From Deltaproteobacteria bacterium (lineage in GTDB: Bacteria > Bdellovibrionota_B > Oligoflexia > Oligoflexales > Bog-1112), in the NCBI GenBank assembly GCA_947475005.1, contig CANJLI010000001.1, positions 130,819 to 194,818 of the forward strand: 64,000 bases of DNA, written 5' to 3'. Every line of letters begins with the position of its first letter. Position 1 is the first letter of the stretch. A program made the position numbers and the translations under genes. The notes under the pieces were generated by a model, which worked only from the letters and a program-made list of their open reading frames with translations, did not search any database and was not told the DNA's origin. This document shows, piece after piece, positions 20,662-64,000 of this stretch.

Positions 20662-20665
20662 ACCG

Positions 20666-46374: not shown

Positions 46375-47531
46375 GTTTACAGAAAAGAAATAAAAAAAAC
46401 TCCCTGCTCATGCTTGTCTCTAGCTATCCCCCAGCCAAAGGGGGGGTTCAAATTGTTGCGCAACAATATGCTCAATTATATAAGGAACTCGGCTATTGTG
46501 TACAAATCATTACAACTGATGCACGACAAACTCAGAGGAAAAAAGAAAGAATTGGAGCATTTGGAGAAAAAATCACTTCGTTTAGAGTGGATTTAAATAT
46601 TCAATCTGTTCCATTCTCTTGGGGGTTCTTTATGGAAACCCTTAAAATAGCCTCAAAACTAGAGAAAAACTTTCACCTACTCATTCACCACCCCGCCCCC
46701 CAAGACTCTTTACTGTCCATCATTCTTTTTTTATTGTTTAGATGTAAACTCCGAATTGTTTTTCACGCTGAAATCGTGAATAAAAACAAGATATTGACTT
46801 TTTTTTCTGAACCATTTGTCAAATTATCTCTTTTCCTTGCACATCAAATCATTTTTACAACAAAAAAAATGAAAGATTTATGCCAAGATCGATATAAAGT
46901 AAATGGGAAATCCTTTGTAATTTCAATAGCTAACACATCTACCATAGAAGAGAAAATCCTCCCCAAAAAAAGAGTCCTCAACAAAGCTCTGCAACTAATT
47001 TTTATTGGCCGATTAGTCCCCTACAAGGGGCTCTCTTTCTTAATAGAATCTCTTTCTGGCATAGATGGTGTATATTTAAATATCGTCGGAGATGGGAAAA
47101 ATAAAACCGAAATAGAGGCTCTTATTCATAAATTTAACCTGTCAAAAAAAATAACCCTATACGGAAATTTATGTGACAAAGAAAAACATTATCTTTTAAA
47201 AGAAGCTGATGTTTTTATATTTCCAAGTATTACAAAGGCGGAAGCTTTCGGGATTGCTCAAATTGAAGCTATGCAGTTTGGATTGCCAGTTATTAATACC
47301 AATATTCCATCAGGAGTCCCCGAAGTTTCTAAACATGGCGTATCAGGATTGACAGTATCACCGCGCAACACGAACGAGCTAAAAGAATCTATCGTCAGGC
47401 TAAGAGATGATCCTATTCTTTATCAAAAGTTATCTAAAGGAGCTATATCTAGATCTAAAGATTTTCACTTAGATATAATCCGAGCTCAATTTAAAACAAT
47501 TACACCAGAAAAGATTGAAACATGGAACTAA
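46371..47531 (+). CDS. Glycosyltransferase family 4 (GT-B)
   Basis: 386 aa. FPSITKAEAFGIAQIEAMQFGLPVINTNIPSGVPEV motif. Confidence 0.75.
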   Translation: MSLQKRNKKNSLLMLVSSYPPAKGGVQIVAQQYAQLYKELGYCVQIITTDARQTQRKKERIGAFGEKITSFRVDLNIQSVPFSWGFFMETLKIASKLEKNFHLLIHHPAPQDSLLSIILFLLFRCKLRIVFHAEIVNKNKILTFFSEPFVKLSLFLAHQIIFTTKKMKDLCQDRYKVNGKSFVISIANTSTIEEKILPKKRVLNKALQLIFIGRLVPYKGLSFLIESLSGIDGVYLNIVGDGKNKTEIEALIHKFNLSKKITLYGNLCDKEKHYLLKEADVFIFPSITKAEAFGIAQIEAMQFGLPVINTNIPSGVPEVSKHGVSGLTVSPRNTNELKESIVRLRDDPILYQKLSKGAISRSKDFHLDIIRAQFKTITPEKIETWN

Positions 47532-48682
47532 ATGAATCAACTACGAAATTGACGAATTCACAATCATTACTAGGGATTGTCACAAAAAATTGGAAAATAT
47601 TTTCTTTATTTTCTATACTCGGTGGTATTTCAGGATTTTTTTATGTAAAATCCATACAATTTTTTCACCATAAGCTCGTATTCCAAACAATCAAATTTGA
47701 GCAAACTTTAGAAACCCCAGAAAAGATAAACTCACAGTTAAAACTGCTTTTTAATAATGAAAGCATGTGTAAAAAATTCAGCGAATCATATGTAAAAAAA
47801 TTACAAGAATCTGGTCTTGTGGATGGCATAAGGTTTATAAGTTTTATATCATCCACAGATGCTTCAAAAACTTTAACAAATTATTTATTAAACAAAAACT
47901 CATCAGAAATCGCTCAAAAAAGCCCTCTCTCTATAGAAAGTGATAATAACGGAAATTATATTTTTTCTTTCTCCTCAACCATCCTGCAAAAGGAAGAACT
48001 GATAAAAATTGCAACCATTTTTATCGAGCCGTTCAATTCAACCATCTATGAATTTAATAAATTTATAAATAAAAGATTAGCTATTATAGCTTCGAATAAA
48101 GTAAAAAACCTTCAAACTATACTTAACTCTATTCATTATGAAGACAAGAAAATAGCAGATGAAAAAGTCGAGAATCAATTCAATATTTTAAATATTTATA
48201 AAAAAATTCAGCTCCTAAATAATTTCAAGTCCTTCAATCAAAAAAACGAGAGGAAACAGCCAAATTTTCTTACTTTATTGACTGATTTTGATGACATTCA
48301 ACTTCAAATTCTTCTTGAAAAGGTAGTTCAAACATCCAATAATGATGCTTTTATTAAAAAATTCTTATCCGCATTAAATATAAGGAAATTAATCCAAGAA
48401 AGAGAGAAAAGTAATTTTAAAGAAAAAAACACACGAAGAGAGAAATTTGAATCTATGGTGTCGGATATTATTTCTCCAACTTATAAAGAAGAATATGAAT
48501 TACCCCAAATAATCACTTTAAACAGTGGTACCCCTATATTAAGTGCTGATATTGGCACATCAAACATAAAAATTTCCTATGCCTCTCTATTCGGATCTTC
48601 AATTGCTATGCTTCTTTGTTTTTTTCTTCTCATTCTTAAAAGGATTGATCTCTCTTCTTTAAGAAAAGGCATGGGGTTATAA
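47522..48682 (+). CDS. Possible polysaccharide co-polymerase / chain-length determinant (Wzz-like topology)
   Basis: 386 aa. One TM near each terminus, separated by a long hydrophilic coiled region. Sits between GT and flippase genes. No sequence motif recognised. Confidence 0.35.
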   Translation: MELNESTTKLTNSQSLLGIVTKNWKIFSLFSILGGISGFFYVKSIQFFHHKLVFQTIKFEQTLETPEKINSQLKLLFNNESMCKKFSESYVKKLQESGLVDGIRFISFISSTDASKTLTNYLLNKNSSEIAQKSPLSIESDNNGNYIFSFSSTILQKEELIKIATIFIEPFNSTIYEFNKFINKRLAIIASNKVKNLQTILNSIHYEDKKIADEKVENQFNILNIYKKIQLLNNFKSFNQKNERKQPNFLTLLTDFDDIQLQILLEKVVQTSNNDAFIKKFLSALNIRKLIQEREKSNFKEKNTRREKFESMVSDIISPTYKEEYELPQIITLNSGTPILSADIGTSNIKISYASLFGSSIAMLLCFFLLILKRIDLSSLRKGMGL

Positions 48683-50053: not shown

Positions 50054-51076
50054 TCACTTTGAAATGAGCTGTCTGTATTTTTCAGCTTCCCAATCTATCA
50101 GCTCAGAAATTTGTTGCTTATCCAAGCTATGAAGTAGGACATCCTGGGGTTGGCGTATAAGCACTTCGTAATAGCATTGAAGTTGCAGCTGTTTAGCTAC
50201 GCTAAATTCTGGTTTTGAATATACACCTATTTCCTTCAAAAATACCAACTCAGGAGAGTTCCCTTTTTCTATATCTTCAATTAATAATGAAACTGAATCA
50301 TAACAGATCGGTTCTGGACCTAAAAAGACAACATGGTCAGGATATAAGCCCCAATCAGTCCGTAATCGTTTGAATAGGTGACTGAAAGCCAAATTATGGA
50401 TACCAGGAATGGGCACAGGAATATAGGATTTCCCATTTGTTATGAGTATAGGAGCAGGGTTTTCATTAATGAACGCACCGAGAAACGGTTGTAATTTCAG
50501 CATAGATAATAATTGAGTAAGAAATTTTTCAATCTCTTTAATATCAGAACCTCCGATTACAATTCCATGATTTTGAAGCAGTAAAATTTTTGTATCAGGA
50601 GCTTTGGATATTTTTTCTGCAACTGCCTTGGCTAATGCTTCCCCAGGTTTTTGATAGCTCACCATTTCCCAAGAAATGTCTGCGGTTATTTTGTTTTTTA
50701 TCTGTTGTTCACAGTCAGCTCGGACCAAATACGAAAGAGGTTCAATAGCGTGAATGTGTAAAACAATTTTATGTGGCATTAGTGCGTGAAGTATTGTTTC
50801 GATAGAGGGTCTTAGTAATGATTTCCTTTTTAACTTTGGTGTGACAGAGTAATTTCCTTTTCTTACTTCTCTCTGTAAATCAAATAGGTCCACAGCGGTA
50901 AATATATCTTTTTCTTTTGCATTCGCGAGCCATGTCCCGGAAGCTTTTATCCAAAGTATTTCATCATCTTTCCAAGAAATATTTCCTCCAGCACCTTGCA
51001 CTAGCATGGGATTTGCACCAATATGAGCACAATAGTCAACTATAGATTCTCTACTTATAGTTTTTTTCAAAGTCAA
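50054..51076 (-). CDS. Class II aldolase/adducin-fold protein
   Basis: 340 aa. GAGGNISWK motif (as in the N-terminal domain of rhamnulose-1-P aldolase/dehydrogenase fusions) and metal-His context LHIHAIEP. Confidence 0.5.
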   Translation of the reverse strand: MTLKKTISRESIVDYCAHIGANPMLVQGAGGNISWKDDEILWIKASGTWLANAKEKDIFTAVDLFDLQREVRKGNYSVTPKLKRKSLLRPSIETILHALMPHKIVLHIHAIEPLSYLVRADCEQQIKNKITADISWEMVSYQKPGEALAKAVAEKISKAPDTKILLLQNHGIVIGGSDIKEIEKFLTQLLSMLKLQPFLGAFINENPAPILITNGKSYIPVPIPGIHNLAFSHLFKRLRTDWGLYPDHVVFLGPEPICYDSVSLLIEDIEKGNSPELVFLKEIGVYSKPEFSVAKQLQLQCYYEVLIRQPQDVLLHSLDKQQISELIDWEAEKYRQLISK

Positions 51077-51831
51077 CGAGTCTCCCCCAGCCTGGAAATA
51101 AATTTACGTAATTGTCCAAACTCTTGAAAAAATCCATCGGGAATAGCGAGGCCGGTACCAACTTCAGTTCCTTGGTGTATTTTTTGTAGAGTTACGGCAT
51201 TTATTTTTTCCCGAGCTCCCTGAATGTCATTGATAGGATTATCGCCAATCATCCAAACGCAGGCCCCTTTGGGCTTCATTTTTTCTAAAGCGATTTGAAA
51301 AGGGGCTGCATGCGGCTTGTCAAATCCTGCTTCTTCACTTGTTACAATATAATCAAAGTAATGATCTAAACCAAAATAAACTACCTTTCGAAATTGAATT
51401 TTTGCAGTCAAATCTGTGACAATTGCAGTCGGTATGCCTAAAATACGAAGGTCATCTAGCAATTCTTTTACGCCTTCAAATAAGATCGCATGACTCAAAA
51501 AACTTCGCCAATACGTTTGCTCAAAGTCTAGCGCCAGAAGAACTTGCGAACCAAGTCCCATAATTTCTAACATCTTTTGTAAATATAAAAGCCGGCTATG
51601 AGAGGAGGCTGTATTTTTTAGTCTGGCTTTTACCTGACGTCTAGCTTCGTCAAATGCGAAATCAAAATCTTGAGGGCGAATGGAAAATCTGTTGACCACC
51701 TTGTTTTTTACAGCCTGTTGAGCAGCAGTATGGGCAGGATCATACGGGTACAACGTATTATCTGTATCAAATAAAATTGCATCTGGTAGACGATCAAATC
51801 GATGTGGGTTAATAATATTCATTTTAGACAA
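51073..51831 (-). CDS. HAD-superfamily hydrolase/phosphatase
   Basis: 252 aa. Motif I ILFDTDNTLY, motif III/IV ...MIGDNPINDIQGA. Confidence 0.75.
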   Translation of the reverse strand: MSKMNIINPHRFDRLPDAILFDTDNTLYPYDPAHTAAQQAVKNKVVNRFSIRPQDFDFAFDEARRQVKARLKNTASSHSRLLYLQKMLEIMGLGSQVLLALDFEQTYWRSFLSHAILFEGVKELLDDLRILGIPTAIVTDLTAKIQFRKVVYFGLDHYFDYIVTSEEAGFDKPHAAPFQIALEKMKPKGACVWMIGDNPINDIQGAREKINAVTLQKIHQGTEVGTGLAIPDGFFQEFGQLRKFISRLGETR

Positions 51832-53884
51832 GCCGTTTTGTTAAGGTCTGGTTAATCTGTGTGAGAGTAATTAATTGCATAATTCCCACAATTCCATCCT
51901 GCCATTTTGGTAAAATACCGAGAAACGGAAGAATACGTGGACAGAGAATTTTGGCGGCTATAGCAATATCTTCTGCAGAAGTATCGCCTTCTATGGTCAG
52001 AATTACCTCTGTGCTTACATGATCATGTTTATCATCAAGATCAACATGGAGACCACATACCCCAATTAGTACACGCAAGAGTAAAAATTCGTTCAAACCA
52101 TGTCGTGTGCGAGCAATCAGTTTAAATCGAAAATTTTTCATATCTGTAGGAACAGGTATGGCGATAGGGTGTAGAGGTTGTAGAGATAAAATCAAATCAG
52201 CATGCTCTGCTTGGGGACGAATAAAACGAGCTGAATCAAGTTCTCGTCTATCAAATGAAGATAAAACGTCTTCAACTGTTTTCCCTCTTTGATGTACATC
52301 GCGTTGTATCTTGAAAAGACGGCGTAAATTTTCATCGATATCTAAATAAATGCTTAAATGATAAGAATTTCGAAGGATTGGCAGATAAAGAGCATGCAAG
52401 CCGCTTGATATAATGAAATCATTACTTTTTATGATGAACGGTTTACTCATTTTTCCAGTTGCGTGATCGTAATGTCGAGATTGAATATTTTTTCTATCGA
52501 CCAGAGAAAGCAAATCAATGGCAAATCCCTCCAGATCATTTGCCATTGGATTTAAATGGGTCATCACTTGCCACATTGGCTTTTGCCGGTCCCATAAGTG
52601 ATAATCATCTCCGGATAAAGTAGTTACAGATTGGTTGCCAAATAAGCCTGTTAGTGCATCAGAAAAAGTATCTTTTCCTGCACCAGAGTCTCCTGCAATG
52701 CCTATTACAAATGGGTTGCGGCTTAGTCTGAAGTAATCATTTCGGCTTACCGTCTCCCGCCATATGCGCATGCCTAAAATGAGGCCGGTAGCTACCATGC
52801 CTGTATGTAGTAGGGTGGCTATATGAGTATTTAGCTCCTTAGAAAAATAGGAAAGTGAATTTATATTGAAATGACCAAAGCTTAAAATTTCAAGCAAAGG
52901 CGTTGTTAGTAGGCTGCTTACTACATAAAAACATGAAAAAATTCCTGTTAAGACAATTGAAAGTCGCCCACTCATGGCTTGATAGGTTACTAAAAAGGGG
53001 ATGGTCCATATGAACCAGCCTGGTGAAGCAGGCATCATGAGCACGATTAAAAGAAAAATTATCCCTAGAATCGCATGGAATAAGTCATAATTGAGACGGC
53101 GGATTCGCCAAACAATATACAGCATGACAAAGTAGATGAGGGGGATCACATAAAGTGCAACATTGTTACCAAGATTAAGAGTCAAATTATATATTTTTCC
53201 CATTTCTGGATTGCTAACCAACATGTGCAATCCACCCGCAGAAAAAAAGAAAGGTAGGCCAAGCGTAGCTCCGCCAATCAAAAAACCTCTTAAAAATTGA
53301 GCTAAAAATTGCTTCAAAGAATGATTGTTAAAAAGATAGATTAAAAAAAATGGTAATGCCAATACCATACTGAGTTTGGCTGAAATTGCGGCAGCACAGG
53401 CGATGCCTGCATATTTAAACCGAAATTGTTGGGTGAAATATAAAGATAGAGTTAGAAATAGAACCGGGATCAAATCATTTAATCCCAATCCATAAGTGGC
53501 AAGTATTACGATTGGAGATAACCAATACACACCGATAAGCAAAGGGTCTCTACCGGGTAAAAACTGTCGCAATCCAACCAGAAGTGCAAAATCAGCAGTC
53601 AATAAGGTGAGCTCATAGCTGTATCGAGATGAAATTCCAAAAAGTTTGGCGATAAGGGTCAGGGGCAAAAAAGAAAACCACATCGCGTAGCCGTAGGGGA
53701 ATGCAACAGCAGCGCCGCCTCTATTGATCCAAGTCGTCCATGGATCAAAAGTGATTTGAGCCGTACTTGCATGCAGGAAGGGCACATACCAGTTGTTTAC
53801 AGCATGAAAACCAGGAGTAAACATCAGAGCGAGACGAATTGCTAATCCTATCCAAAAAAGAGGATGAGAACATAGTTTTATCAT
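51824..53884 (-). CDS. Fusion protein: N-terminal polytopic membrane domain (~390 aa) plus phosphoribulokinase/uridine-kinase-family P-loop kinase domain plus C-terminal domain
   Basis: 686 aa. VIGIAGDSGAGKDTF Walker A, then SGLHALYL, LSIYLDIDENLRRLFKIQRDVHQRGKT, closely following PRK/Udk family motifs. The N-terminus has more than 10 hydrophobic segments. Confidence 0.65.
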   Translation of the reverse strand: MIKLCSHPLFWIGLAIRLALMFTPGFHAVNNWYVPFLHASTAQITFDPWTTWINRGGAAVAFPYGYAMWFSFLPLTLIAKLFGISSRYSYELTLLTADFALLVGLRQFLPGRDPLLIGVYWLSPIVILATYGLGLNDLIPVLFLTLSLYFTQQFRFKYAGIACAAAISAKLSMVLALPFFLIYLFNNHSLKQFLAQFLRGFLIGGATLGLPFFFSAGGLHMLVSNPEMGKIYNLTLNLGNNVALYVIPLIYFVMLYIVWRIRRLNYDLFHAILGIIFLLIVLMMPASPGWFIWTIPFLVTYQAMSGRLSIVLTGIFSCFYVVSSLLTTPLLEILSFGHFNINSLSYFSKELNTHIATLLHTGMVATGLILGMRIWRETVSRNDYFRLSRNPFVIGIAGDSGAGKDTFSDALTGLFGNQSVTTLSGDDYHLWDRQKPMWQVMTHLNPMANDLEGFAIDLLSLVDRKNIQSRHYDHATGKMSKPFIIKSNDFIISSGLHALYLPILRNSYHLSIYLDIDENLRRLFKIQRDVHQRGKTVEDVLSSFDRRELDSARFIRPQAEHADLILSLQPLHPIAIPVPTDMKNFRFKLIARTRHGLNEFLLLRVLIGVCGLHVDLDDKHDHVSTEVILTIEGDTSAEDIAIAAKILCPRILPFLGILPKWQDGIVGIMQLITLTQINQTLTKRLV

Positions 53885-53899
53885 AAATTCCTAGTGATG

Positions 53900-54490
53900 T
53901 TATTTTTCCCATAAATCTGGGCGCTTGGTGCATACAGCCTCGGCTTGAATACCAATATCTTTTAATAGCTGTTTCATTTTTGGAATTTCAGTCTCTGCAT
54001 TGCGCCCCTGTAATTCTGGAGAGACAAGACAAAGCTTAAATTTCGCTTCTTGGAGTTGTCTTGCGTGTTCAAAGCTGAGAGGAAAGCGAGTAAAGCAATC
54101 CACCCAAATCCAACATACTTTTCCAGCTAAGCTCAAAGCTGTTTCGACTGACTCAAATTCAGATACTCGCACAGCAGATCGACCTTCTCCAGCTTGGAAA
54201 TATTTCATAAGAAAAGGAAAGGATTGATCCAGAAAAAAATAATCTTTGATGCCATGCTGTTCCATTAAGGTAATGAGTCTGGGTTCAAGGCCTTCTTCTT
54301 TTACATTAAGGATTAATGTACCATGCTTATAAAATTGAAGCCAATTGATAAAGGACTCCCCCTGTACGAAGGGATCGTGATGAAGGATTAGTTCAGAACC
54401 ATGGCTGCGAATATCAATTTCAACCCCATAAGAATGAGATACAGACTGAAGTTCAGAAACGGTATTTATACGATGTTTGATAATGATCAT
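53900..54490 (-). CDS. Glycerophosphodiester phosphodiesterase-like (GDPD/PLC-like TIM barrel) protein
   Basis: 196 aa. IIKHRINT ... GVEIDIRSHGSELILHHDPF resembles the GDPD HR...E.D...HD pattern. Confidence 0.45.
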   Translation of the reverse strand: MIIIKHRINTVSELQSVSHSYGVEIDIRSHGSELILHHDPFVQGESFINWLQFYKHGTLILNVKEEGLEPRLITLMEQHGIKDYFFLDQSFPFLMKYFQAGEGRSAVRVSEFESVETALSLAGKVCWIWVDCFTRFPLSFEHARQLQEAKFKLCLVSPELQGRNAETEIPKMKQLLKDIGIQAEAVCTKRPDLWEK

Positions 54491-56184
54491 TTAGTGCACT
54501 CTTCAAGTGCTTGAATTTCAAATATTTTGTATTTTTTTGAATTAAAACGAGGTCGACACTCTTTGAAAGAGTCCGCATGGTTTTGTTCAATAACAACCCA
54601 GTTTATTTTGTAACTTTTAGAAATTTCCACAAAGTTTTTTGGATTTAATGATTGATAATAATTCGCTTGTTTTTCTCCAATCCAACTACCCGCATTGTCT
54701 TTTATAGTAGCAGTATCTCCGCTGACAAGTTTTTTTCTTTTGCTATATTCATCAAAAAAATCTTCTGAAAATGGAAACCCATTTCCAAAAAAGACTGATC
54801 TTCCAGTTATTAGCGGAACAAAAACCCTCGTATCATCTACTGGTAGTATAAAAACATCTGCCTTACCAGAGGTGTTTTTTATAAATTCAAAGAACGGCTT
54901 ATCTTTTTCAATTATAAAATCAAAATTAGGTGGTTTTGACGCAAATAAAATTGCTAAAATCACCAAAAAAACGCCGCCACTTACTATTAAATATTTATTA
55001 AAAATAGTTGTTTTAAAGAGAACACTTTCAATTTTTTTAAAAAAATCTAATTTAGATAGTATTATCAAAATTGAAAGGAGAAAGAAAATAAATAATAGCC
55101 AAGGGCCGAATAGTGTAAAGCGGGACGGCCCTAATATAGCGATTAATTTGACAGGCCAAATCTCAATAAAAATATATTGAGCTAAGACAGATACACCATA
55201 CGCCACGGTTGCAGCTACTGAATTTTTATAAGCCTCGCAGTTTAATTTGTATAAAATAAAAGAGGTGATGATTAACCCGGATTGAACAATAAAAAATGAA
55301 ATAAACCATGGGAATCGGCTTAAAGAACCAAAATAAGTTGGTAAAAAATGTGAAGGGTGTGCCTCAATCACATAAATTTTGATAAATTCTTGAGCAGATA
55401 ATCCTACTCCTGCATCAAATATTATTTTGATACATAATGCAGAAAGCAGGCTAGGCAATAACCCAAATATGAGTAAAGACCGATTCTCTTTAATCGCATA
55501 ATATACTTTGCTATGCAAAATATATGCGAAAATTGATGTCAAAATGCAGGCAGCAGGGTGAATAATTCCCCCAAGAAATATAAGTAGAAAACCAATTGAA
55601 TGCTTCTCAAAAAAGAGGACACAAAAACCAAGTAGTGTTAAAGTGATAGATAGATTATGTGGCGTTGCCTCGAAATATAAAGGGCTCCACCACGCAACGC
55701 TTAATACTGCCCCCAATCTCCCTTGAAGGAGGAAGATTATGATTGGGGCAAAAATACACGCGAGAAGAAAAACAGCTTCTCTAGTTGTACTACTAGATTT
55801 TAAATATCTTTCTGATTGTACTCGAATTGATATTGCTATTGTAAAAGTCAATAAAAATGGAAACAAAACCAACAGAAAAGCTTTAATAACTCCAAGACCG
55901 CCTCCAAGCCCATTGGCAGAAAACTTTGTTACTATCCACAACAAATAGGTGAATGGGAACCTTGGATTTACTGTAGAGCTCGCATTGGTGAAAAAATCAG
56001 TAGAAAGACAGGTGCTGTCAAGCAAGCGACATATAGCGGGTAGATTATCCACAGCAGGCCAAGTGAGTGGAGTTGTGCCAAAATATAATAGATACATCCA
56101 TAATGCAGAAATGAGAGACACAGATAGTAAGAATTTTAAAGAATTTGAGGAGATTTTTTTTAAAAAATTTTTTTCCATTCTCAA
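54487..56184 (-). CDS. Polytopic membrane protein with C-terminal soluble domain (possible GT-C-type transferase or polymerase, family unknown)
   Basis: 565 aa. More than 12 hydrophobic segments, then a hydrophilic tail of about 150 aa. Overlapping stops/starts with its neighbours. Confidence 0.4.
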   Translation of the reverse strand: MRMEKNFLKKISSNSLKFLLSVSLISALWMYLLYFGTTPLTWPAVDNLPAICRLLDSTCLSTDFFTNASSTVNPRFPFTYLLWIVTKFSANGLGGGLGVIKAFLLVLFPFLLTFTIAISIRVQSERYLKSSSTTREAVFLLACIFAPIIIFLLQGRLGAVLSVAWWSPLYFEATPHNLSITLTLLGFCVLFFEKHSIGFLLIFLGGIIHPAACILTSIFAYILHSKVYYAIKENRSLLIFGLLPSLLSALCIKIIFDAGVGLSAQEFIKIYVIEAHPSHFLPTYFGSLSRFPWFISFFIVQSGLIITSFILYKLNCEAYKNSVAATVAYGVSVLAQYIFIEIWPVKLIAILGPSRFTLFGPWLLFIFFLLSILIILSKLDFFKKIESVLFKTTIFNKYLIVSGGVFLVILAILFASKPPNFDFIIEKDKPFFEFIKNTSGKADVFILPVDDTRVFVPLITGRSVFFGNGFPFSEDFFDEYSKRKKLVSGDTATIKDNAGSWIGEKQANYYQSLNPKNFVEISKSYKINWVVIEQNHADSFKECRPRFNSKKYKIFEIQALEECTK

Positions 56185-56186
56185 GA

Positions 56187-56894
56187 TTATTTCATTCCTT
56201 TTTTGATTCTTGATTTTAATTGAAAACTGAAGTCAAAGGTTCGCATAATAAACTTGCGCTTTTCATTCCAATTTACATTCCATCTCGAAATCCCGTGGAC
56301 GCGCTTCCCAAATAAAACTGGATATCGATATACAGGAATTTTAGAGTTTCGAGCTTGGAAATAAGCATACAGATCAAGAGAAAAATCATGCGGGGCATCC
56401 TGCCAGGCTTCAAAAAAAGAACGAGGAAATAGGGTAGGCTGCGCATTGATATCCCACATTCTTTTTCCAAGCAACACAGATTCAAAGACACTCATGCCTA
56501 TAGTAAAAATAGTGTCTGTAAAAGGTCGTCCATAACGACAGCCTTTTACAAAAACATTGGGGCCATATTTATCAAACAGTTTTAATCCATGGAGTACATC
56601 CTGTGGATCGGTTTGCATGTCTGCATGGGTCCAACCCAGAATTTCACCTTTTGCTGCCTGAAGGCCGCTAATAATCCCAAATCCATATCCTTTATTTTTT
56701 TCTACTCGAACGCTTCGACAGCCAGGATATTTTGGGAGAAGATTTAAAAGAACTTTCGGGCTGTTGTCGATCGAGCCGTTATCTACCAGAATGATTTCTA
56801 CATCGGGATAACGAATTACTTCTTTGCATCGCTCTAACAATAGTGGAATAGTATCCGCCTCATTGTAGCAAGGAATAATAAGAGAAAACCGCAT
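56187..56894 (-). CDS. Glycosyltransferase family 2
   Basis: 235 aa. FSLIIPCYNEADTIPLLL, VDNGSIDNS, WTHADMQ. Confidence 0.75.
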   Translation of the reverse strand: MRFSLIIPCYNEADTIPLLLERCKEVIRYPDVEIILVDNGSIDNSPKVLLNLLPKYPGCRSVRVEKNKGYGFGIISGLQAAKGEILGWTHADMQTDPQDVLHGLKLFDKYGPNVFVKGCRYGRPFTDTIFTIGMSVFESVLLGKRMWDINAQPTLFPRSFFEAWQDAPHDFSLDLYAYFQARNSKIPVYRYPVLFGKRVHGISRWNVNWNEKRKFIMRTFDFSFQLKSRIKKGMK

Positions 56895-57011
56895 ATTTTA
56901 GCCTAATTTTCTGATTGTAACAAATCTACCTACGGCAAATATATTGAAAGGTAAAAAAATTTATTTTTTATAAATTTCCTGTCTACAATTTTTTATCTAC
57001 AACGAATTTCC

Positions 57012-58625
57012 CTAGAGCATTTTTTTTTGAACCCGACTATCTAATTCCAATCGGTATGGATGCCCACTCCATTTATGAAAACATGCCTGCCAATATTCAA
57101 ACGTACGTAAATCATTGGGTGTGCCCCAAGATAAAAAACTATCCACCTCGAACAAATGGCAGCGAAGTCCAAGGGCGAGGGCATCATTAATACAGGAGTC
57201 AATATAATACTCACCATTGACTCGCCCGTCTCTAGCAATAAGATGAGCAACAACCTGATGGAAATCCTCGGCGCGACGGAATGTAAAAGTTCCGATAACA
57301 ATAGGATCAGTTGTGGGAGATTCTAGAGGTGTTTTTACAGAAATTCTGCGAATGCGACCCTCTTTTGCATCGATCCATCCAAACATTTGAGGATGACGTA
57401 CTGCATTGGCATGACCTCGAACGCCCCAAACAATCACATCTATATCTGGGTTATCGATCAACCGCTGGAAAGCTTTGGCATCATAGAGAGCTCCATTGTC
57501 ACAAGCACCAAAGGTAATGGGTCCTTCAGTATACCCAATCATTTGTTCCAACGCTTCTAATCCGATGAGTGCCGTACACGCCTGACCCTTCGTAACTGCT
57601 GGGATGGTTTTGATTATGGCTGCTGGATAAATATTTTTAAGTTCATCTGTAATTTCTTGATATCCTGGCATATCACTTCTTAAAACGAAAGCATGATGAA
57701 CCGCTACCGGCAGATCATGCGTGGCTTGAGTCACCATGGGCTTTCCTGAGACAGGAATTAGCGGTTTTGTTATTCGATATCCTTCATTCACAAATCTTTG
57801 CCCCAATCCTGCCATGGGAATTACCAGAGCCCCTTTTGAAGGAATAACTTCAGTTTCTGCTACGAGCAAATGCTGAAAAGCTTCAGACCAACCTTTATAT
57901 TCAGCCACATCTTCAGGAGTACCCCACTGCATGAAATGTTGCAGAGGATAAACAGCGACTGGCTCTTTTTTTGCGAGCAGGGGTTTATAAGCAAGACTGA
58001 CATAATATTCACCGCCCACATTTAGCCCTTGATCCATCGTGACCTGAAAGGCCTCACTCATGATTTTTCCTGAGGCGAAGTAGTATGTCCCGCTAGAGGC
58101 ATATTCCTCCATGCGATTATCTGTATAAGGTTGTTTTTCTTGGATGTCTAGAAGCAACCCGTTTGATTCACGCATGTAGGCATAGTTGGTGCTGCCAAGC
58201 GTATGAGGATGAAACCCTTTATATGCAGGAATTGCACCCATGCATGCATTTTTGGCAACAAATGCCTTAAAATCTTCCCAGTCCCAATCGCACGTAAAGT
58301 CGCAGTAGTTGACCACCACTGGCTTATTGAAATTAATCAAATGCTCCACTTTTCGCACGGCATGAATTGGGCCTAACTTATGAGGCGGGATACCGACGAT
58401 TCGGCCTGTTGGGCAGAGGGCTTGAAGGATTGTTTTCATGCCATAGCGAGGAGTATCTAAGTGGTTTTGGTTACAAATGAAAATGAAATCCAATTCGCCC
58501 GGAAACATGTCAATAACATGCGCGATAATCGGCTTCCCGTCTATTTCGATGAGTGGCTTGGGTACTGTGTACCCCGCCCGGCGGAAACGCTCGCCGAAGC
58601 CCGACATCGGAATAACAATCTGCAT
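57012..58625 (-). CDS. Tandem-duplicated sugar-phosphate nucleotidyltransferase-fold protein
   Basis: 537 aa. Two NTP-transferase N-termini: MQIVIPMSGFGERFRRAGYTVPKPLIEIDGKPII (res 1-34) and LVIPMAGLGQRFVNEGYRITKPLIPVSGKPMV (around res 270). Confidence 0.65.
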   Translation of the reverse strand: MQIVIPMSGFGERFRRAGYTVPKPLIEIDGKPIIAHVIDMFPGELDFIFICNQNHLDTPRYGMKTILQALCPTGRIVGIPPHKLGPIHAVRKVEHLINFNKPVVVNYCDFTCDWDWEDFKAFVAKNACMGAIPAYKGFHPHTLGSTNYAYMRESNGLLLDIQEKQPYTDNRMEEYASSGTYYFASGKIMSEAFQVTMDQGLNVGGEYYVSLAYKPLLAKKEPVAVYPLQHFMQWGTPEDVAEYKGWSEAFQHLLVAETEVIPSKGALVIPMAGLGQRFVNEGYRITKPLIPVSGKPMVTQATHDLPVAVHHAFVLRSDMPGYQEITDELKNIYPAAIIKTIPAVTKGQACTALIGLEALEQMIGYTEGPITFGACDNGALYDAKAFQRLIDNPDIDVIVWGVRGHANAVRHPQMFGWIDAKEGRIRRISVKTPLESPTTDPIVIGTFTFRRAEDFHQVVAHLIARDGRVNGEYYIDSCINDALALGLRCHLFEVDSFLSWGTPNDLRTFEYWQACFHKWSGHPYRLELDSRVQKKML

Positions 58626-58709: not shown

Positions 58710-59441
58710 CTAGTTTTTAACAAACAAAATATCGCATTGCAATATTCGCCCCGTTTCTGGCGAACAAAAAGCTGGGTATAAAGCAAATACAGAGAATCCT
58801 TCATTCTCTAACCGCGCCACAATATCTTTCCATAATTTTGTCCCCTCGTATAAGGGTTCTAAAGATACCTCTAATTGTATCGCTCGAGCTAAGCGCATAA
58901 TTTTTTGTGCGCCATCTAAAACTTCCCATTCAAATCCTTGGGTATCAATCTTGATAAAAATATTTTTAAACTCCTGCGCTGCCTCTAGAGCAACCGAATC
59001 AAGAGTTTCTATTCGAACCCGCTCTGTGGCTATATAGGCGGAAGTTGGAGCAGATTCGACATGTAATTTCATTATCGATAAAATGGAACTGCTCACAGAA
59101 TTGGCTGAAATATTAATATCAACAAAACCCTTATAGGATCCAATGGCACATTTATCATATATCGTCCAAAGAGAGTCATTTTTCGAATTTTCAAGCAAAG
59201 AATCATATGCCGCAGAAAGTGGTTCATATGAGATTATTTTCCCCTTATAACCATTCTCTCTTATCCCCCGCGAAAACTGCCCTATATTTGCTCCAACATC
59301 TAAAATCAAATCAATCTCATATTTACATATAAATTTTTCTAACATGGCACATGGCGAATGTTCGGGAACAAAAGTTTGTAAAACAAACCCCTTTTTTTTT
59401 AAAATCCATTTAATCCATTTTTTCATACTCGATAGCATCAT
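58710..59441 (-). CDS. FkbM-family methyltransferase
   Basis: 243 aa. ILDVGANIGQFS motif. Contains an A10 tract in codons 14-17. Confidence 0.7.
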   Translation of the reverse strand: MMLSSMKKWIKWILKKKGFVLQTFVPEHSPCAMLEKFICKYEIDLILDVGANIGQFSRGIRENGYKGKIISYEPLSAAYDSLLENSKNDSLWTIYDKCAIGSYKGFVDINISANSVSSSILSIMKLHVESAPTSAYIATERVRIETLDSVALEAAQEFKNIFIKIDTQGFEWEVLDGAQKIMRLARAIQLEVSLEPLYEGTKLWKDIVARLENEGFSVFALYPAFCSPETGRILQCDILFVKN

Positions 59442-59749
59442 AAAAACAGTCCCTCTTCCGAAGATTCCCAGCTAAGAAACACCCTCAACCTGGTATCTGT
59501 CGGATAATAACATGGCATCATCTGCACTTCTAGTTTATAGATAAAAATAGGTCAAATTTAAGAGCCGTCGTCAGTCAATTTAAAATTGATAAAAAAGTAG
59601 TTACTTTTGTTCTCGCATAACAAAAGAGAGTTTATACCCCCTGCATTTTTTCTTTACCCAGACCCTAAAGGACCGAGCTTGATCGTACAGCTTGCCTTGA
59701 GCATCTCTTTATGGCGACTATTATATCTGCTACTTTTGAGAGAAATACC

Positions 59750-61342
59750 ATGTATTACATTATTGGTTCTGGGCCTGCTGGAGTTTCTTGTGCTCTTGGT
59801 CTTTTAGAGAATGGCTGCGATGTTACTCTAATTGATGCAGGCAATAATTTAGAATTTGATCGACAATTTCTGATTGAGGAAATGGCCACACTTGAGCCAG
59901 AGGAGTGGCCCACCTCTCTTAAGAGAGACCAAAGACAACATCAAACAGCCCGACTTTCTGGGGTTGATCTAAAATTAGCATATGGATCCTCGTATCCTTA
60001 CGATATCCCTAAAAATTGGGAGAAAAAGCCAATCACAATAACTAAGGACTCCGGACTGCTACCGTCATACTGTAAAGGTGGATTTAGTTCCGTTTGGGGC
60101 GCTTCCATACTGCCTTACACAGCTGCAGATACAAAAGAGTGGCCATTTCCTATTTCTGAACTGTCCCCACACTATAAGGCGATATTAGATTGGATCAGCT
60201 TTTCAGCCTGCAAGGATGCACTTGAAGACAAATTTCCTTTATTTTCAACTAACTACAAAAACATAGGGCTTAGCCGGCAGGCTGAAAATATTTATACACA
60301 AATGGGAAAAAACCGCGCCGCATTACAAGAAGCCGGCATTTTTTTTGGCCAATCTCGCCTTGCTCTGCAGCAATTCGAACAAAATTGTCGAAACTGTGGG
60401 TCTTGTATGCATGGGTGTCCATATGGAATTATTTATTCATCCATGAGTAGCATAAAAAATTTGTTAAAAAGATTTTCAAATTTTGACTATTGCCCCGGCT
60501 GGATAGTTGAAACTCTCAAGGAGAGTGGAAATAAAGTCACCATCAATTTTGCAAATGCGGGACCATCCGTTCCAAGCTCTGTTCAAGCTTCTAAAGTTTT
60601 CATCGCTGCGGGTGTAATTCCTACAGCTCACCTAATTCTACAATCTCTAGGATTAGAAAATCACACAATTAAAATTTTAGACAGTCAATATTTCTTAATG
60701 CCTATATTACAAAAGGCTCGCTATAAGAATATAAGCAACGATCGATTAAATACATTATCTCAAATTTTTATTGAGATCTTTGACTCAGAAATCTCACAGA
60801 ATGGCATTCATCTTCAGTTATATTCTTATAACGACCTATATTGGCACCCTTTTTCCAAATTTGGCGCCCTATCTCCACTAATTTGTTCTTTTGCCAAACC
60901 TTGGGTAGAGCGATTAAATGTTATTCAGGGGTACCTCCACTCAAGTGACTCAGGGTACTTAAATCTTACCCTAAAAAAAGACTCTTGTTCAAAACAATAT
61001 TTCTATTTAGAAGGTATCCAGAACAAAAAAAGCAAAATTTTTATTAAAAAGATTCAAATTAAGTTAAAAAGAGAAGAAAAAAAATTTGGATTTTCCCCCA
61101 TGACACCTTCGAAAATTCTAACATCAATTGGGTTGCCTGGACGTGGCTTCCATGCTGGAGGAAGTTTTCCAATGTCTAACGATCCTAAATTATTAGAATG
61201 TGGACGAGATGGAAGATTAAATGGGTTTCGAAATGTTCATTTAGTAGATGCCTCAATTTTACCGTCCATTCCATCCACAACCATTACTTTGAGTGTAATG
61301 GCAAATGCCCATCGAATTGCAACAGAGGTTGCTCATTCATGA
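59750..61342 (+). CDS. FAD-dependent GMC-type oxidoreductase
   Basis: MYYIIGSGPAGVSCALGLLENGCDVTLIDAG Rossmann motif. CRNCGSCMHGCPYG Cys cluster common in GMC family members. Start moved to the ATG at 59750. Confidence 0.65.
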   Translation: MYYIIGSGPAGVSCALGLLENGCDVTLIDAGNNLEFDRQFLIEEMATLEPEEWPTSLKRDQRQHQTARLSGVDLKLAYGSSYPYDIPKNWEKKPITITKDSGLLPSYCKGGFSSVWGASILPYTAADTKEWPFPISELSPHYKAILDWISFSACKDALEDKFPLFSTNYKNIGLSRQAENIYTQMGKNRAALQEAGIFFGQSRLALQQFEQNCRNCGSCMHGCPYGIIYSSMSSIKNLLKRFSNFDYCPGWIVETLKESGNKVTINFANAGPSVPSSVQASKVFIAAGVIPTAHLILQSLGLENHTIKILDSQYFLMPILQKARYKNISNDRLNTLSQIFIEIFDSEISQNGIHLQLYSYNDLYWHPFSKFGALSPLICSFAKPWVERLNVIQGYLHSSDSGYLNLTLKKDSCSKQYFYLEGIQNKKSKIFIKKIQIKLKREEKKFGFSPMTPSKILTSIGLPGRGFHAGGSFPMSNDPKLLECGRDGRLNGFRNVHLVDASILPSIPSTTITLSVMANAHRIATEVAHS

Positions 61343-62181: not shown

Positions 62182-62195
62182 CTTTACAATCGCTT

Positions 62196-63344: not shown

Positions 63345-63384
63345 GTAATAAATTCTTTAAGCCAAATGGTTTTTAATTTTCAAT

Positions 63385-64000
63385 TCATTTTTTTATTGAG
63401 GATGCTTTTAGAGGAAAAAAACATTCATATCTTAATGGGTAGAGAATAAAGAAAAAGAGAAAACACCAGTAGCTTATTTGATGACTATATGTGCTTAAAA
63501 AATGAACGGCCATATTCCAAATATGAGGAAGAGGAAGGTTATCTTGAAGCTTTACTAAAAAAGAGAACGGCGTATTCAAATTGCTCCACGGAAGATTTGC
63601 TTGTGGAGCAATTTGCTCTAAAAAACAGAAGACTCCACCAATGGATAATAAAAAATTACCAGGTGGACGACTATAGTTAATAATTGCAATAGCAAAAATT
63701 GGCAAAATAGGTAGAAAATATCGGCCAGCTGGACACCAACCTGCTTCTGAAAAAGAAGTTGCGCAAATAACACCAATATAAAACAAGCTACCAAGCACAA
63801 TGATTCGATTTGATCTAAACAAAATTGGGGAGAAACTTTTTATAATAAATGGCCAACTCCAAAAAATGCCCCCCGCAAGTCCAATAAAAAACAAAGGGAA
63901 TTCATATGGAATAGAAGAAATATTAAACAAATTGGAACTAAGACCAGCTTTATAATTTGCAGAATAGGAAAAATGCCCCCAGCTATAAAGATTATAAAAA
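63385..64000 (-). CDS. Polytopic membrane protein, N-terminus beyond right window edge (possibly GT-C/ArnT-like partner of the adjacent GT2)
   Basis: The reading frame stays open from 63385 to the window end (manual check upstream of the TTG at 63930). Strongly hydrophobic. Functional call is from context only. Confidence 0.4.
   Translation of the reverse strand, partial: FYNLYSWGHFSYSANYKAGLSSNLFNISSIPYEFPLFFIGLAGGIFWSWPFIIKSFSPILFRSNRIIVLGSLFYIGVICATSFSEAGWCPAGRYFLPILPIFAIAIINYSRPPGNFLLSIGGVFCFLEQIAPQANLPWSNLNTPFSFLVKLQDNLPLPHIWNMAVHFLSTYSHQISYWCFLFFFILYPLRYECFFPLKASSIKK

What the first reader, a model, noticed from the sequence alone, without database searches (positions are those of the whole stretch)
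50054..58625. Seven-gene overlapping operon combining pentulose-phosphate-type enzymes with membrane transferases: candidate pathway for an unusual phospho-sugar or polyol decoration
On the minus strand, with stop/start overlaps or 2-15 nt gaps: tandem nucleotidyltransferase (57012-58625), GT2, a 565-aa polytopic protein, a GDPD-like phosphodiesterase-fold protein, a membrane-fused PRK/uridine-kinase-like kinase, a HAD phosphatase and a class II aldolase-fold protein. The class II aldolase fold includes L-ribulose-5-P 4-epimerase and methylthioribulose-1-P dehydratase. PRK-family kinases act on ribulose-5-P or nucleosides. HAD enzymes dephosphorylate sugar phosphates. Together with nucleotidyltransferases and a GDPD-like protein (phosphodiester chemistry), the set looks like synthesis, activation and phosphodiester-linked transfer of a small sugar or polyol phosphate onto a glycan. 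That would be teichoic-acid-like or phospho-substituent chemistry in a diderm organism. I cannot match this gene combination to a characterised pathway.
Basis: inference. Interest (0 to 1): 0.65.

Follow-up and report, generated by a model that had tools for sequence, protein, structure and literature searches.

The report
Mobile pentulose-type glycan decoration gene module
The seven genes are real and form a widespread, uncharacterised, horizontally mobile module that most likely makes an unusual five-carbon keto-sugar from ribulose 5-phosphate, loads it on a lipid carrier and attaches it to a cell-surface polysaccharide outside the cytoplasm.

Summary
The operon is confirmed. Six of its seven genes are a fixed set: tandem nucleotidyltransferase, GT2, GDPD-fold protein, membrane-fused PRK, HAD and class II aldolase-fold protein. 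All six were found in 43 of 51 genome loci fetched with the kinase fusion alone, from several classes of Proteobacteria and three other groups, 39-41 in the same order at 45-80% identity.

- The membrane half of the kinase is a GT-C glycosyltransferase, nearly always fused to the PRK.
- The GT2 is closest to polyprenyl-phosphate glycosyltransferases (DPMS/ArnC/GtrB).
- Most relatives have a GtrA gene between nucleotidyltransferase and GT2. The window has none.
- The 565-aa protein is the hypervariable partner, in the role GtrC plays in Gtr systems.
- The module is mobile: IS26-bracketed on an E. coli plasmid, and between repressor and tail genes in a viral contig.

The PRK keeps all Ru5P-binding and catalytic residues. 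The HAD's best family is the haloarchaeal RuBP 5-phosphatase.

Best reading: Ru5P -> RuBP -> Ru1P -> a pentulose derivative, then nucleotide activation, Und-P loading and periplasmic GT-C transfer. This is a Gtr/Arn-like system with a new precursor pathway, not teichoic-acid-like phosphodiester chemistry. The sugar's identity (xylulose or ribulose) is inferred. No paper describing the module was found.

The parts
57012..58625 (-). Tandem nucleotidyltransferase (537 aa), with two homologous NTP-transferase halves. Both halves keep the IPMxGxGxRF...KPLI signature.
   Evidence: Pfam NTP_transferase on the N-terminal half. NCBIfam rmlA_long on residues 268-494. Internal BLASTP between the halves gives E 6e-22. 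58-80% identical in 44 related loci.
56187..56894 (-). GT2 glycosyltransferase (235 aa) closest to the polyprenyl-phosphate glycosyltransferases. Predicted to load the sugar on undecaprenyl phosphate.
   Evidence: Pfam Glycos_transf_2. The best solved relatives over the whole catalytic domain are Dol-P-Man synthase 5mlz, ArnC (9hwj, 9bhc, 8vxh) and GtrB 5ekp. The motif HADMQTDP aligns to their DADLQ(H/N)PP.
54487..56178 (-). Variable polytopic membrane protein (563-565 aa). About 12 hydrophobic segments (a simple hydropathy count) plus a ~150-aa C-terminal soluble domain. Presumed acceptor-specific transferase, in the role GtrC plays in Gtr systems. Its fold was not tested.
   Evidence: No Pfam, NCBIfam or PDB sequence match. 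Only 38 clusters in the protein database. The two homologues looked up also sit directly after ald in the same module. Other loci have an unrelated polytopic protein of 540-650 aa in the same place, in at least 6 families. Asp46 in the first loop is conserved in three relatives and about 90% conserved in the deeper family alignment.
53900..54490 (-). Minimal GDPD/PI-PLC-fold TIM-barrel enzyme (196 aa) with no signal peptide. Predicted cytoplasmic phosphodiester-processing step.
   Evidence: AF2 model pLDDT 87. The best PDB fold matches are GDPD 7e0v/7e2a (TM 0.67) and 3i10. H6, N9, E24, D26, R28, H38, D39, K64 and E66 are invariant, and R7 nearly so. 7294 clusters in the protein database, one named PI-PLC/GDPD family by NCBI.
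52730..53884 (-). N-terminal GT-C-fold glycosyltransferase domain of the 686-aa fusion (about residues 1-385).
   Evidence: Confident AF2 model for residues 1-320. Foldseek hits are PIG-M 9wno (TMt 0.62), ALG6 6snh, PimE 9dm7 and ArnT 5f15. There is a weak Pfam ALG3 hit. In a search of 50%-identity representatives the full-length hits are nearly all 650-720 aa, so the domain occurs fused to PRK.
51824..52729 (-). C-terminal phosphoribulokinase domain of the fusion (about residues 386-686). Predicted reaction: Ru5P + ATP -> RuBP.
   Evidence: Pfam PRK E 2e-33, and NCBIfam PRK07429 at 190 bits. PDB PRKs score 132 bits against 52 for uridine kinases. The residues equivalent to CrPRK R64, Y103, H105, R159, D160 and R164 are R433, Y472, H474, R528, D529 and R533. 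They keep identical spacing and are invariant in the family.
51073..51822 (-). HAD-IA phosphatase (249 aa). Predicted reaction: RuBP -> ribulose 1-phosphate.
   Evidence: Pfam HAD. The best NCBIfam family by far is the haloarchaeal RuBP 5-phosphatase NF053830 (E 8e-49, 166 bits; the next family scores 96 bits), but this is below its 330-bit cutoff. The DxDxT motif D22-T-D24-N-T26 is visible in the sequence. It is the most conserved gene of the module in most loci (72-81% in most; 42-67% in the most divergent).
50054..51076 (-). Zn-dependent class II aldolase-fold enzyme (340 aa) with a conserved C-terminal extension. Predicted to act on ribulose 1-phosphate, as an epimerase or other enediolate chemistry.
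   Evidence: Pfam Aldolase_II. It is closest to the aldolase domain of bifunctional aldolase/SDR proteins at 70 bits, with only weak hits to FucA, MtnB and Ru1P aldolase. GGN-S, KASG, SIE93, H107xH109, NH170G, PD247 and E332/R335 are invariant.
58710..59441 (-). FkbM-family methyltransferase, 84 nt upstream on the same strand. Possible accessory that methylates the sugar.
   Evidence: Pfam Methyltransf_21 and TIGR01444. Unrelated methyltransferases are inserted inside the module in other loci: a class I SAM type in L007, L012, L034 and L037, and a TylF type in L043, L049 and L060.

Best explanation
The operon is the local copy of a conserved, horizontally mobile module for decorating a surface glycan through a lipid carrier, on the plan of the Gtr and Arn systems but with its own precursor pathway.

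Cytoplasmic steps (inferred):
1. The PRK domain phosphorylates ribulose 5-phosphate to ribulose 1,5-bisphosphate.
2. The HAD phosphatase removes the 5-phosphate, giving ribulose 1-phosphate.
3. The Zn class II aldolase-fold enzyme remodels it through an enediolate. A retro-aldol/aldol C4 epimerisation to L-xylulose 1-phosphate, or a C3 epimerisation to D-xylulose 1-phosphate, is the most economical reading.
4. The tandem nucleotidyltransferase and the GDPD-fold enzyme convert this into a nucleotide-linked glycosyl donor.
5. The DPMS/ArnC/GtrB-like GT2 transfers the sugar to undecaprenyl phosphate.

After flipping (by GtrA in most relatives; unknown here), the GT-C domain fused to the kinase and/or the variable 565-aa polytopic protein transfer the sugar to the polysaccharide made by the adjacent Wzx/Wzy cluster.

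What is shown: gene set, order, conservation, mobility, folds and active-site residues. What is inferred: every substrate, the order of steps 3-4, and which membrane protein touches the final acceptor.
For: Conservation:
- 43 of 51 loci found with the fusion alone have all six core genes, 39-41 in the same order, across Beta-, Gamma- and Alphaproteobacteria, Geobacter, Planctomycetia and Myxococcales.
- More distant copies on Azospirillum and Hirschia plasmids keep every part.

Carrier logic:
- The GT2 is closest to DPMS, ArnC and GtrB.
- A GtrA gene lies between ntp2 and gt2 in 38 of 43 complete loci.
- The kinase's membrane half has a GT-C fold.
- A hypervariable polytopic gene is attached in nearly every locus.

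Precursor logic:
- The PRK is far closer to true PRKs than to uridine kinases, and all Ru5P-binding and catalytic residues are invariant.
- The HAD's best family is the enzyme shown to convert RuBP strictly to Ru1P, which in haloarchaea is also encoded next to a class II aldolase (PMC9700705).
- The aldolase-fold protein keeps its metal and phosphate-binding residues.
- Both nucleotidyltransferase halves keep the NTP signature.
- The GDPD-fold protein keeps a His/Arg/Glu/Asp/His set.

Context:
- The module adjoins Wzx/Wzy genes in the window and wzm/wzt genes in Solimicrobium and Azospirillum.
- It stands alone in Y. enterocolitica.
- It is IS26-bracketed on an E. coli plasmid.
- In a viral contig it lies between a CI-like repressor and baseplate and tail-fibre genes, the usual place for seroconversion cargo.

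Open niche: xylulofuranose occurs in O antigens of E. coli O95 and O97 and of Y. enterocolitica O:10. No genes for its activated precursor are known (PMC7685785; PMC11380512). The module is present in Y. enterocolitica, Y. proxima and Y. bercovieri, with one part also in Y. intermedia.
Against: - No substrate was tested.
- The HAD scores 166 bits against a 330-bit cutoff for RuBP phosphatase, and the aldolase-fold protein is not specifically related to Ru1P aldolase (22 bits).
- A 1-phosphate on a 2-ketose is not anomeric. A GT2-compatible donor therefore needs extra chemistry with no direct precedent. The proposed role of the GDPD-fold enzyme and the second nucleotidyltransferase half fills that gap by inference only.
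- The window has no GtrA gene in 64 kb.
- The fold of the 565-aa protein is unknown.
- There are two membrane candidates, and no way here to say which one modifies the glycan.
- Only 2 of 5426 complete E. coli genomes carry the module. If O95 or O97 strains are in that collection and lack it, the module is not their source of xylulose. Their serotypes were not checked.
- No strain with a known glycan structure could be tied to the module.
Confidence: 0.55

Rival explanations
1. The module makes a nucleotide-activated pentulose or pentitol 1-phosphate (analogous to CDP-ribitol) and attaches it to the glycan through a phosphodiester, giving teichoic-acid-like chemistry. The GDPD-fold protein or a membrane protein would act as the phosphotransferase.
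For: - Ru1P carries its phosphate on a primary carbon, as ribitol-5-P and MEP do, and enzymes of the same nucleotidyltransferase fold activate those. The N-terminal half has weak IspD hits.
- A GDPD/PI-PLC-fold enzyme handles phosphodiesters.
- There are two nucleotidyltransferase halves.
Against: - No reductase was found in the window's operon.
- No gene of the operon matches a TagF/TarL-, LicD-, CDP-alcohol-phosphotransferase- or EptA/LtaS-type enzyme.
- The GT2 belongs with the polyprenyl-phosphate glycosyltransferases and travels with GtrA and GT-C proteins. That is the glycosidic carrier route.
- The GDPD-fold protein has no signal peptide or membrane segment, so it cannot act on the periplasmic glycan.
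Confidence: 0.15
2. PRK, HAD and the aldolase form a short cleavage route, Ru5P -> RuBP -> Ru1P -> DHAP + glycolaldehyde, as in the haloarchaeal non-carboxylating pentose bisphosphate pathway. The module would use a two- or three-carbon product, or the trio would only regulate or detoxify, while the transferred sugar is made from something else.
For: The same pair, a RuBP phosphatase-type HAD next to a class II aldolase, works this way in haloarchaea (PMC9700705). The aldolase-fold protein keeps the full aldolase metal site.
Against: - DHAP is an abundant metabolite (general knowledge), so a dedicated route to it is not needed. No enzyme that would use glycolaldehyde (reductase, aminotransferase or dehydrogenase) was seen in the core set.
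- The trio is inseparable from the nucleotidyltransferase, GT2 and GT-C genes in 43 of 51 loci, and the kinase is physically fused to the GT-C domain.
- The aldolase belongs to a different, longer subfamily than the haloarchaeal enzyme.
Confidence: 0.08
3. The transferred residue is an aldopentose, or another sugar unrelated to pentuloses. The PRK-like and HAD domains would act on different substrates, for example a lipid- or nucleotide-linked sugar 5-phosphate, as in the decaprenyl-phosphoribose route of mycobacteria.
For: - Kinase and phosphatase steps on carrier-linked pentoses have precedent in the mycobacterial DPPR -> DPR route (established knowledge).
- Fusion of the kinase to a membrane protein would suit a lipid-linked substrate.
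- The HAD is below its family's cutoff.
Against: - Every residue that binds the Ru5P phosphate and sugar in true PRKs is invariant, with identical spacing.
- No gene of the operon matches the UbiA-type phosphoribosyltransferase or the DprE1/E2-type epimerase families.
Confidence: 0.12

Closest known systems
GtrA/GtrB/GtrC O-antigen glucosylation systems of Shigella and Salmonella temperate phages
   Same: - A GT2 that loads a sugar on undecaprenyl phosphate.
- A GtrA-family small membrane protein, present in most relatives.
- A hypervariable polytopic partner.
- A self-contained, mobile unit, found here on an IS26 plasmid and at a prophage cargo position.
   Different: - Four extra cytoplasmic enzymes (tandem nucleotidyltransferase, GDPD-fold, HAD, aldolase-fold).
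- A second, conserved GT-C domain fused to a phosphoribulokinase.
- The donor is not a housekeeping UDP-glucose but a sugar the module makes itself.
- The window copy lacks gtrA.
Arn (PmrHFIJKLM) pathway for undecaprenyl-phosphate-L-Ara4N and ArnT
   Same: A dedicated sugar-synthesis branch, an ArnC-type GT2, flipping, and periplasmic transfer by a GT-C enzyme. ArnC is among the best solved relatives of the GT2, and ArnT is among the fold hits of the GT-C domain.
   Different: The precursor enzymes are entirely different. There is no dehydrogenase, decarboxylase, aminotransferase or formyltransferase. The acceptor is probably a polysaccharide rather than lipid A. The variable partner changes between hosts.
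Non-carboxylating pentose bisphosphate pathway of haloarchaea (RuBP phosphatase + Ru1P aldolase; PMC9700705)
   Same: A HAD phosphatase whose closest family is this RuBP 5-phosphatase, encoded next to a class II aldolase-fold enzyme. RuBP and Ru1P are intermediates outside the Calvin cycle.
   Different: - RuBP would come from a PRK, not from ribose-1,5-bisphosphate isomerase.
- The context is biosynthetic, not catabolic.
- The aldolase-fold protein is of another, longer subfamily.
- Both enzymes score below the curated cutoffs (166 vs 330 bits and 22 vs 300 bits).
Mycobacterial polyprenyl-phosphate sugar systems (PpgS/Rv3779; decaprenyl-phosphoribose/arabinose with GT-C arabinosyltransferases; PimE)
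   Same: A polyprenyl-P GT2 (PpgS is among the NCBIfam hits) feeding GT-C transferases. PimE is a fold hit of the GT-C domain. There is also the theme of a pentose phosphate that is dephosphorylated on the way to the carrier.
   Different: No UbiA-type transferase and no DprE1/E2. The host is a diderm. No GT-C::kinase fusion is known in those systems.
CDP-ribitol / CDP-glycerol teichoic-acid-type pathways (TarI/TarJ, TagD/TagF, LicD)
   Same: They start from ribulose 5-phosphate and use a nucleotidyltransferase of the same fold.
   Different: No reductase and no polyol-phosphate transferase. The module carries GT2, GtrA and GT-C machinery instead.

Membership tests
Gtr-type three-component glycan modification system | GtrA-family small membrane protein (flippase) | tested here: not met
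   No GtrA homologue anywhere in the 64-kb window (tblastn), and the ntp2-gt2 gap is only 117 nt. It is present (PF04138) in 38 of 43 complete related loci.
Gtr-type three-component glycan modification system | GtrB-like GT2 that makes polyprenyl-phosphate sugar | tested here: met
   The best solved relatives are DPMS, ArnC and GtrB over residues 1-201, with the DADLQxPP-like motif aligned. Activity was not tested.
Gtr-type three-component glycan modification system | Acceptor-specific polytopic transferase (GtrC role) | tested here: inconclusive
   A hypervariable polytopic gene of 540-650 aa is attached to the module in nearly all loci. The window's p565 has no detectable family or solved relative, and its structure was not predicted.
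GT-C glycosyltransferases | GT-C membrane fold | tested here: met
   This applies to residues 1-385 of the fusion. The AF2 model is confident for residues 1-320. Foldseek hits are PIG-M, ALG6, PimE, ArnT and ALG9, probability 1.00, TMt up to 0.62.
Phosphoribulokinase (PF00485; class II PRK) | P-loop plus the Ru5P-binding and catalytic residues (CrPRK R64, Y103, H105, R159, D160, R164) | tested here: met
   GDSGAGK is present. R433, Y472, H474, R528, D529 and R533 are aligned, identically spaced and invariant in 25 family members. The Pfam threshold is passed. The NCBIfam PRK07429 score is 190 bits, below its 236-bit cutoff.
Phosphoribulokinase (PF00485; class II PRK) | Ru5P kinase activity | not testable with these tools
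   Needs an enzyme assay.
RuBP 5-phosphatase (NCBIfam NF053830) | Score at or above the curated equivalog cutoff | tested here: not met
   166 bits against a cutoff of 330. It is still the best family by 70 bits. The HAD DxDxT motif is present.
Class II aldolase / epimerase / dehydratase superfamily (PF00596) | Pfam threshold, and the metal-binding His triad plus catalytic Glu | tested here: met
   64.9 bits against a cutoff of 22.2. E93, H107, H109 and H170 are invariant in 12 diverse members. No equivalog cutoff (FucA, MtnB, AraD, Ru1P aldolase) is reached, so the reaction type is open.
Glycerophosphodiester phosphodiesterase / PI-PLC-like superfamily | Sequence-profile membership (Pfam GDPD) | tested here: not met
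   No Pfam or NCBIfam hit.
Glycerophosphodiester phosphodiesterase / PI-PLC-like superfamily | TIM-barrel fold with the catalytic His/Arg/Glu/Asp/His set | tested here: met
   The top Foldseek hits are GDPDs (7e0v, 7e2a, 3i10), TM 0.67. H6, E24, D26, H38 and E66 are invariant and R7 is nearly invariant. Matching these residues to the GDPD catalytic set is by inspection and recall, not by superposition.
Teichoic-acid-type polyol-phosphate pathway | Ketose-phosphate reductase and a polyol-phosphate transferase (TagF/TarL, LicD or CDP-alcohol type) | tested here: not met
   None of the operon's proteins matches such families in Pfam or NCBIfam, and none was seen in the conserved set of related loci.

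The most novel reading that the evidence does not exclude
The module is the missing route by which bacteria activate ketofuranoses such as xylulofuranose for glycosyl transfer. Because no kinase phosphorylates the tertiary anomeric C2 hydroxyl, the cell would do the following:
1. Install a 1-phosphate with a PRK.
2. Remove the 5-phosphate.
3. Epimerise the sugar.
4. Activate the 1-phosphate with the first nucleotidyltransferase half.
5. Let the GDPD-fold enzyme form and open a 1,2-cyclic phosphate, so that the phosphate ends up on the anomeric carbon.
6. Make the true NDP-ketofuranose with the second nucleotidyltransferase half.

This would explain the xylulose side branches of Yersinia enterocolitica O:10 and O:5,27 and of E. 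coli O97. It would also give RuBP a biosynthetic role in heterotrophs.
Probability: 0.15. Interest if true: 0.85.

Novelty: new variant of a known kind. Interest (0 to 1): 0.7.

Why it matters
- **An abundant, unstudied module.** The GDPD-fold protein family alone has more than 7000 clusters at 90% identity. The module reaches Yersinia enterocolitica, Erwinia, Pseudomonas, Legionella relatives, an E. coli IS26 plasmid and a prophage-like contig. No paper describing it was found.
- **Surface-antigen change.** If it works as proposed, it is a portable way to change a surface antigen, and so phage and antibody recognition.
- **New biochemistry.** It shows that phosphoribulokinase and RuBP are used outside carbon fixation. 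It also offers a concrete, testable candidate for how pentulofuranose residues of O antigens are activated, a question a 2019 review left open.
- **An unusual architecture.** I know of no previous description of a GT-C::PRK fusion, and the literature searches found none.

Tried and rejected
**Literature.** Searches for the gene combination and for nucleotide-activated xylulose or ribulose found nothing relevant. A Coxiella preprint that mentions xylulose concerns catabolism only.

**The 565-aa protein.**
- Pfam at E up to 1 on p565 and nine other variable partners gave no hits.
- A 25-member profile of the p565 family against PDB sequences found only a chance-level hit (E 1.5). Pfam gave only weak DUF6798 hits in 6 of 25 members.
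- hhalign between six families of variable partners and the GT-C domain gave no convincing relation, except F563-F651 at 77% probability.

**The window itself.**
- No Rfam family in the window.
- Promoter-like and terminator-like sites are no more frequent than in shuffled sequence.
- No GtrA remnant in the 117-nt gap or anywhere in the window.

**Phage and serotype links.**
- No full-length match to the fusion in cultured-phage records. The only hits cover its kinase part at 28-30% identity.
- I could not link the module to a serotyped strain. The Y. enterocolitica O:10 paper deposits only the O-antigen cluster, and the serotypes of the two E. coli carriers could not be read with the available calls.

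**Readings rejected.**
- Methionine-salvage-like (MtnK/MtnB/MtnC): the HAD shows no enolase-phosphatase hit and the kinase is a PRK.
- Decaprenyl-phosphoribose-like route: no UbiA or DprE homologues.

**Weak result.** The AF2 model of the PRK half came out with low confidence, so the kinase argument rests on sequence, not on the model.

Full report
**1. The observation**

ORF listing shows seven consecutive minus-strand ORFs at 50054-58625. Gene calls on identical public metagenome contigs agree, with slightly shorter starts for the HAD (249 aa) and the 565-aa protein (563 aa). Junctions are overlaps or gaps of 1-15 nt. The exception is a 117-nt AT-rich gap between the nucleotidyltransferase and the GT2. 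An eighth minus-strand gene, an FkbM methyltransferase, lies 84 nt upstream.

Family assignments:
- Pfam confirms Aldolase_II, HAD, PRK, Glycos_transf_2 and NTP_transferase.
- The two halves of the 537-aa protein are homologous over their whole length (E 6e-22). Both keep the IPMxGxGxRF...KPLI signature.
- The 196-aa protein has no profile hit. Its AlphaFold model (pLDDT 87) matches GDPD structures best (7e0v, TM 0.67). H6, E24, D26 and H38 are invariant in the family and R7 nearly so.

The window comes from an uncultured freshwater organism. The whole polysaccharide region has lower G+C than the rest of the window.

**2. Conservation**

A scan of one genome per species with the kinase fusion returned 51 loci. 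They come from Beta-, Gamma- and Alphaproteobacteria, Geobacter, Planctomycetia and Myxococcales, and include Yersinia proxima, Erwinia mallotivora and E. psidii, Pseudomonas entomophila and Legionella relatives.

- 43 loci carry all six core genes, and 39-41 have them in the same order. Most of the eight incomplete loci are cut by contig ends.
- Typical identities to the window (most loci) are about 58-80% for the nucleotidyltransferase, 55-71% for the GT2, 58-70% for the GDPD-fold protein, 41-69% for the fusion and 72-81% for the HAD. The aldolase-fold protein is the least conserved at 37-49%. The most divergent loci fall lower.
- More distant copies on Azospirillum and Hirschia plasmids still have every part.
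- The GDPD-fold family has 7294 clusters at 90% identity.
- The GT-C domain alone finds 776 representatives at 50% identity. Nearly all full-length ones are 650-720 aa, so the domain nearly always occurs fused to the kinase.

**3. What the relatives add**

- Between the nucleotidyltransferase and the GT2, 38 of 43 complete loci carry a GtrA-family gene. The window has none anywhere. Spirobacillus, Rugamonas and a few others also lack it.
- Nearly every locus has a polytopic protein of 540-650 aa next to the module, usually directly after the aldolase gene. These proteins fall into at least six families with no detectable mutual similarity.
- The window's 565-aa protein belongs to a small family of 38 clusters, with no Pfam or PDB relative. 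The two members I looked up also sit in the module.
- This pattern of a conserved core plus a hypervariable membrane partner is that of gtrAB plus gtrC.
- Some loci add a methyltransferase inside the module, once fused to GtrA. The window has an FkbM enzyme upstream.

**4. Mobility**

- On E. coli plasmid NZ_CP145712.1 the eight genes lie between two IS26 copies. Only 2 of 5426 complete E. coli genomes have the module.
- In Y. enterocolitica it stands alone between hut genes and unrelated genes, away from any O-antigen cluster.
- In Spirobacillus it adjoins transposases.
- In a 71-kb IMG/VR contig it lies between a CI-like repressor and baseplate and tail-fibre genes, where temperate phages carry seroconversion cargo. 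The left flank is identical to a Pseudomonas genome locus.

**5. The parts**

- **GT2.** The best solved relatives over the full catalytic domain are Dol-P-Man synthase, ArnC and GtrB. HADMQTDP aligns to their DADLQxPP.
- **Fusion, N-terminal half.** It is modelled confidently and hits GT-C enzymes (PIG-M, ALG6, PimE, ArnT).
- **Fusion, C-terminal half.** It scores 132 bits against PRK structures and 52 against uridine kinases. The residues reported to bind the Ru5P phosphate, and the catalytic Asp of plant-type PRK, are R64, Y103, H105, R159, D160 and R164 (bioRxiv 10.1101/422709). They correspond to R433, Y472, H474, R528, D529 and R533. The spacing is identical and they are invariant in the family.
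- **HAD.** Its best NCBIfam family by 70 bits is the haloarchaeal RuBP 5-phosphatase, although below that model's cutoff. That enzyme is strictly specific for RuBP, makes Ru1P, and is encoded beside a class II aldolase (PMC9700705).
- **Aldolase-fold protein.** It keeps the phosphate-binding and Zn-binding residues and has a conserved C-terminal extension. It is closest to the aldolase domain of bifunctional aldolase/SDR proteins.

**6. Mechanism**

Shown: the folds, the motifs, the fixed gene set and the carrier-type machinery.

Inferred: Ru5P -> RuBP -> Ru1P; an enediolate-based remodelling of Ru1P; nucleotide activation; loading on Und-P; flipping; periplasmic GT-C transfer to the product of the adjacent Wzx/Wzy cluster.

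A C4 epimerisation would give L-xylulose 1-phosphate, by the retro-aldol/aldol logic of AraD. A C3 epimerisation would give the D form.

One chemical problem remains. A 1-phosphate on a 2-ketose is not anomeric. The two nucleotidyltransferase halves and the GDPD-fold enzyme may solve this by moving the phosphate through a 1,2-cyclic intermediate. Alternatively, one half may activate the anomeric hydroxyl directly, as CMP-Kdo synthetase does. Neither option is tested.

Which of the two membrane proteins touches the final acceptor is also open. The conserved GT-C domain implies a conserved acceptor, and the variable partner a host-specific one.

**7. Comparison with what is known**

The system works like Gtr and Arn. 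It is not a plain member of either: the window lacks GtrA, and the precursor enzymes and the GT-C::PRK fusion have no counterpart. It shares two enzyme types with the haloarchaeal pentose bisphosphate pathway but sits in a biosynthetic setting. The teichoic-acid analogy fails on the reductase and the phosphotransferase.

Xylulofuranose occurs in O antigens of E. coli O95 and O97 and of Y. enterocolitica O:10. A review states that genes for its activated form have not been found (PMC7685785; PMC11380512). The module occurs in Y. enterocolitica, Y. proxima and Y. bercovieri, with one part also in Y. intermedia. I could not connect it to a serotyped strain, so this remains a lead.

**8. Verdict**

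This is a new variant of a known kind of system. It is widespread, mobile and uncharacterised, with an unusual fusion and a plausible link to an open question in O-antigen biosynthesis.

Noticed in passing
L057 (IMG/VR UViG_3300034110_001068) 3160-21807; L042: The module lies between a CI-like repressor and P2/Mu-type baseplate and tail-fibre genes in a 71-kb viral contig. Its left flank is 100% identical, at protein level, to a Pseudomonas sp. Choline-02u-1 locus. This suggests phage-borne seroconversion cargo.
   Followed up: partly
L052 (E. coli plasmid NZ_CP145712.1) 4986-17325: The eight-gene module, plus a truncated AIDA-repeat (autotransporter-type) gene, is bracketed by two IS26 copies on a 33-kb plasmid from human stool. 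A second E. coli strain, from a bullfrog, has the same region.
   Followed up: partly
window 59711-63930: Next to the operon there are four further genes: a GMC/FAD oxidoreductase-like gene and an SDR gene on the + strand (overlapping by 145 nt as called), a second polyprenyl-phosphate glycosyltransferase (AglJ/DPM-like, four C-terminal membrane segments) on the - strand, and a hydrophobic ORF with no family. This may be a second lipid-carrier modification system.
   Followed up: partly
L037 7488-8693; L007, L012, L034; L043, L049, L060: Methyltransferase genes of two unrelated types (class I SAM, TylF) are inserted between gtrA and gt2 in several loci. In L037 the methyltransferase is fused to GtrA, which hints at methylation of the carrier-linked sugar.
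   Followed up: partly
L032 9267-12037; L011 11148-14673; L002 13850-17322: One alphaproteobacterial locus lacks the GDPD-fold gene. L011 has two tandem variable partners of one family, and L002 has two of different families.
   Followed up: no
window 42000-64000: G+C falls from about 0.45-0.55 to 0.32-0.41 across the whole polysaccharide region, including the operon. This is typical of horizontally exchanged surface-glycan loci.
   Followed up: no
window 51824-52729 (PRK half of the fusion): AlphaFold gave low confidence (many blocks with pLDDT below 60) for the kinase half, despite clear sequence homology to solved PRKs. The membrane half was confident.
   Followed up: no
window 47522-48682 and 42225-43232: Two ORFs in or next to the adjacent Wzx/Wzy cluster (386 aa and 335 aa) have no NCBIfam hit. 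The 386-aa one also has no Pfam hit.
   Followed up: no
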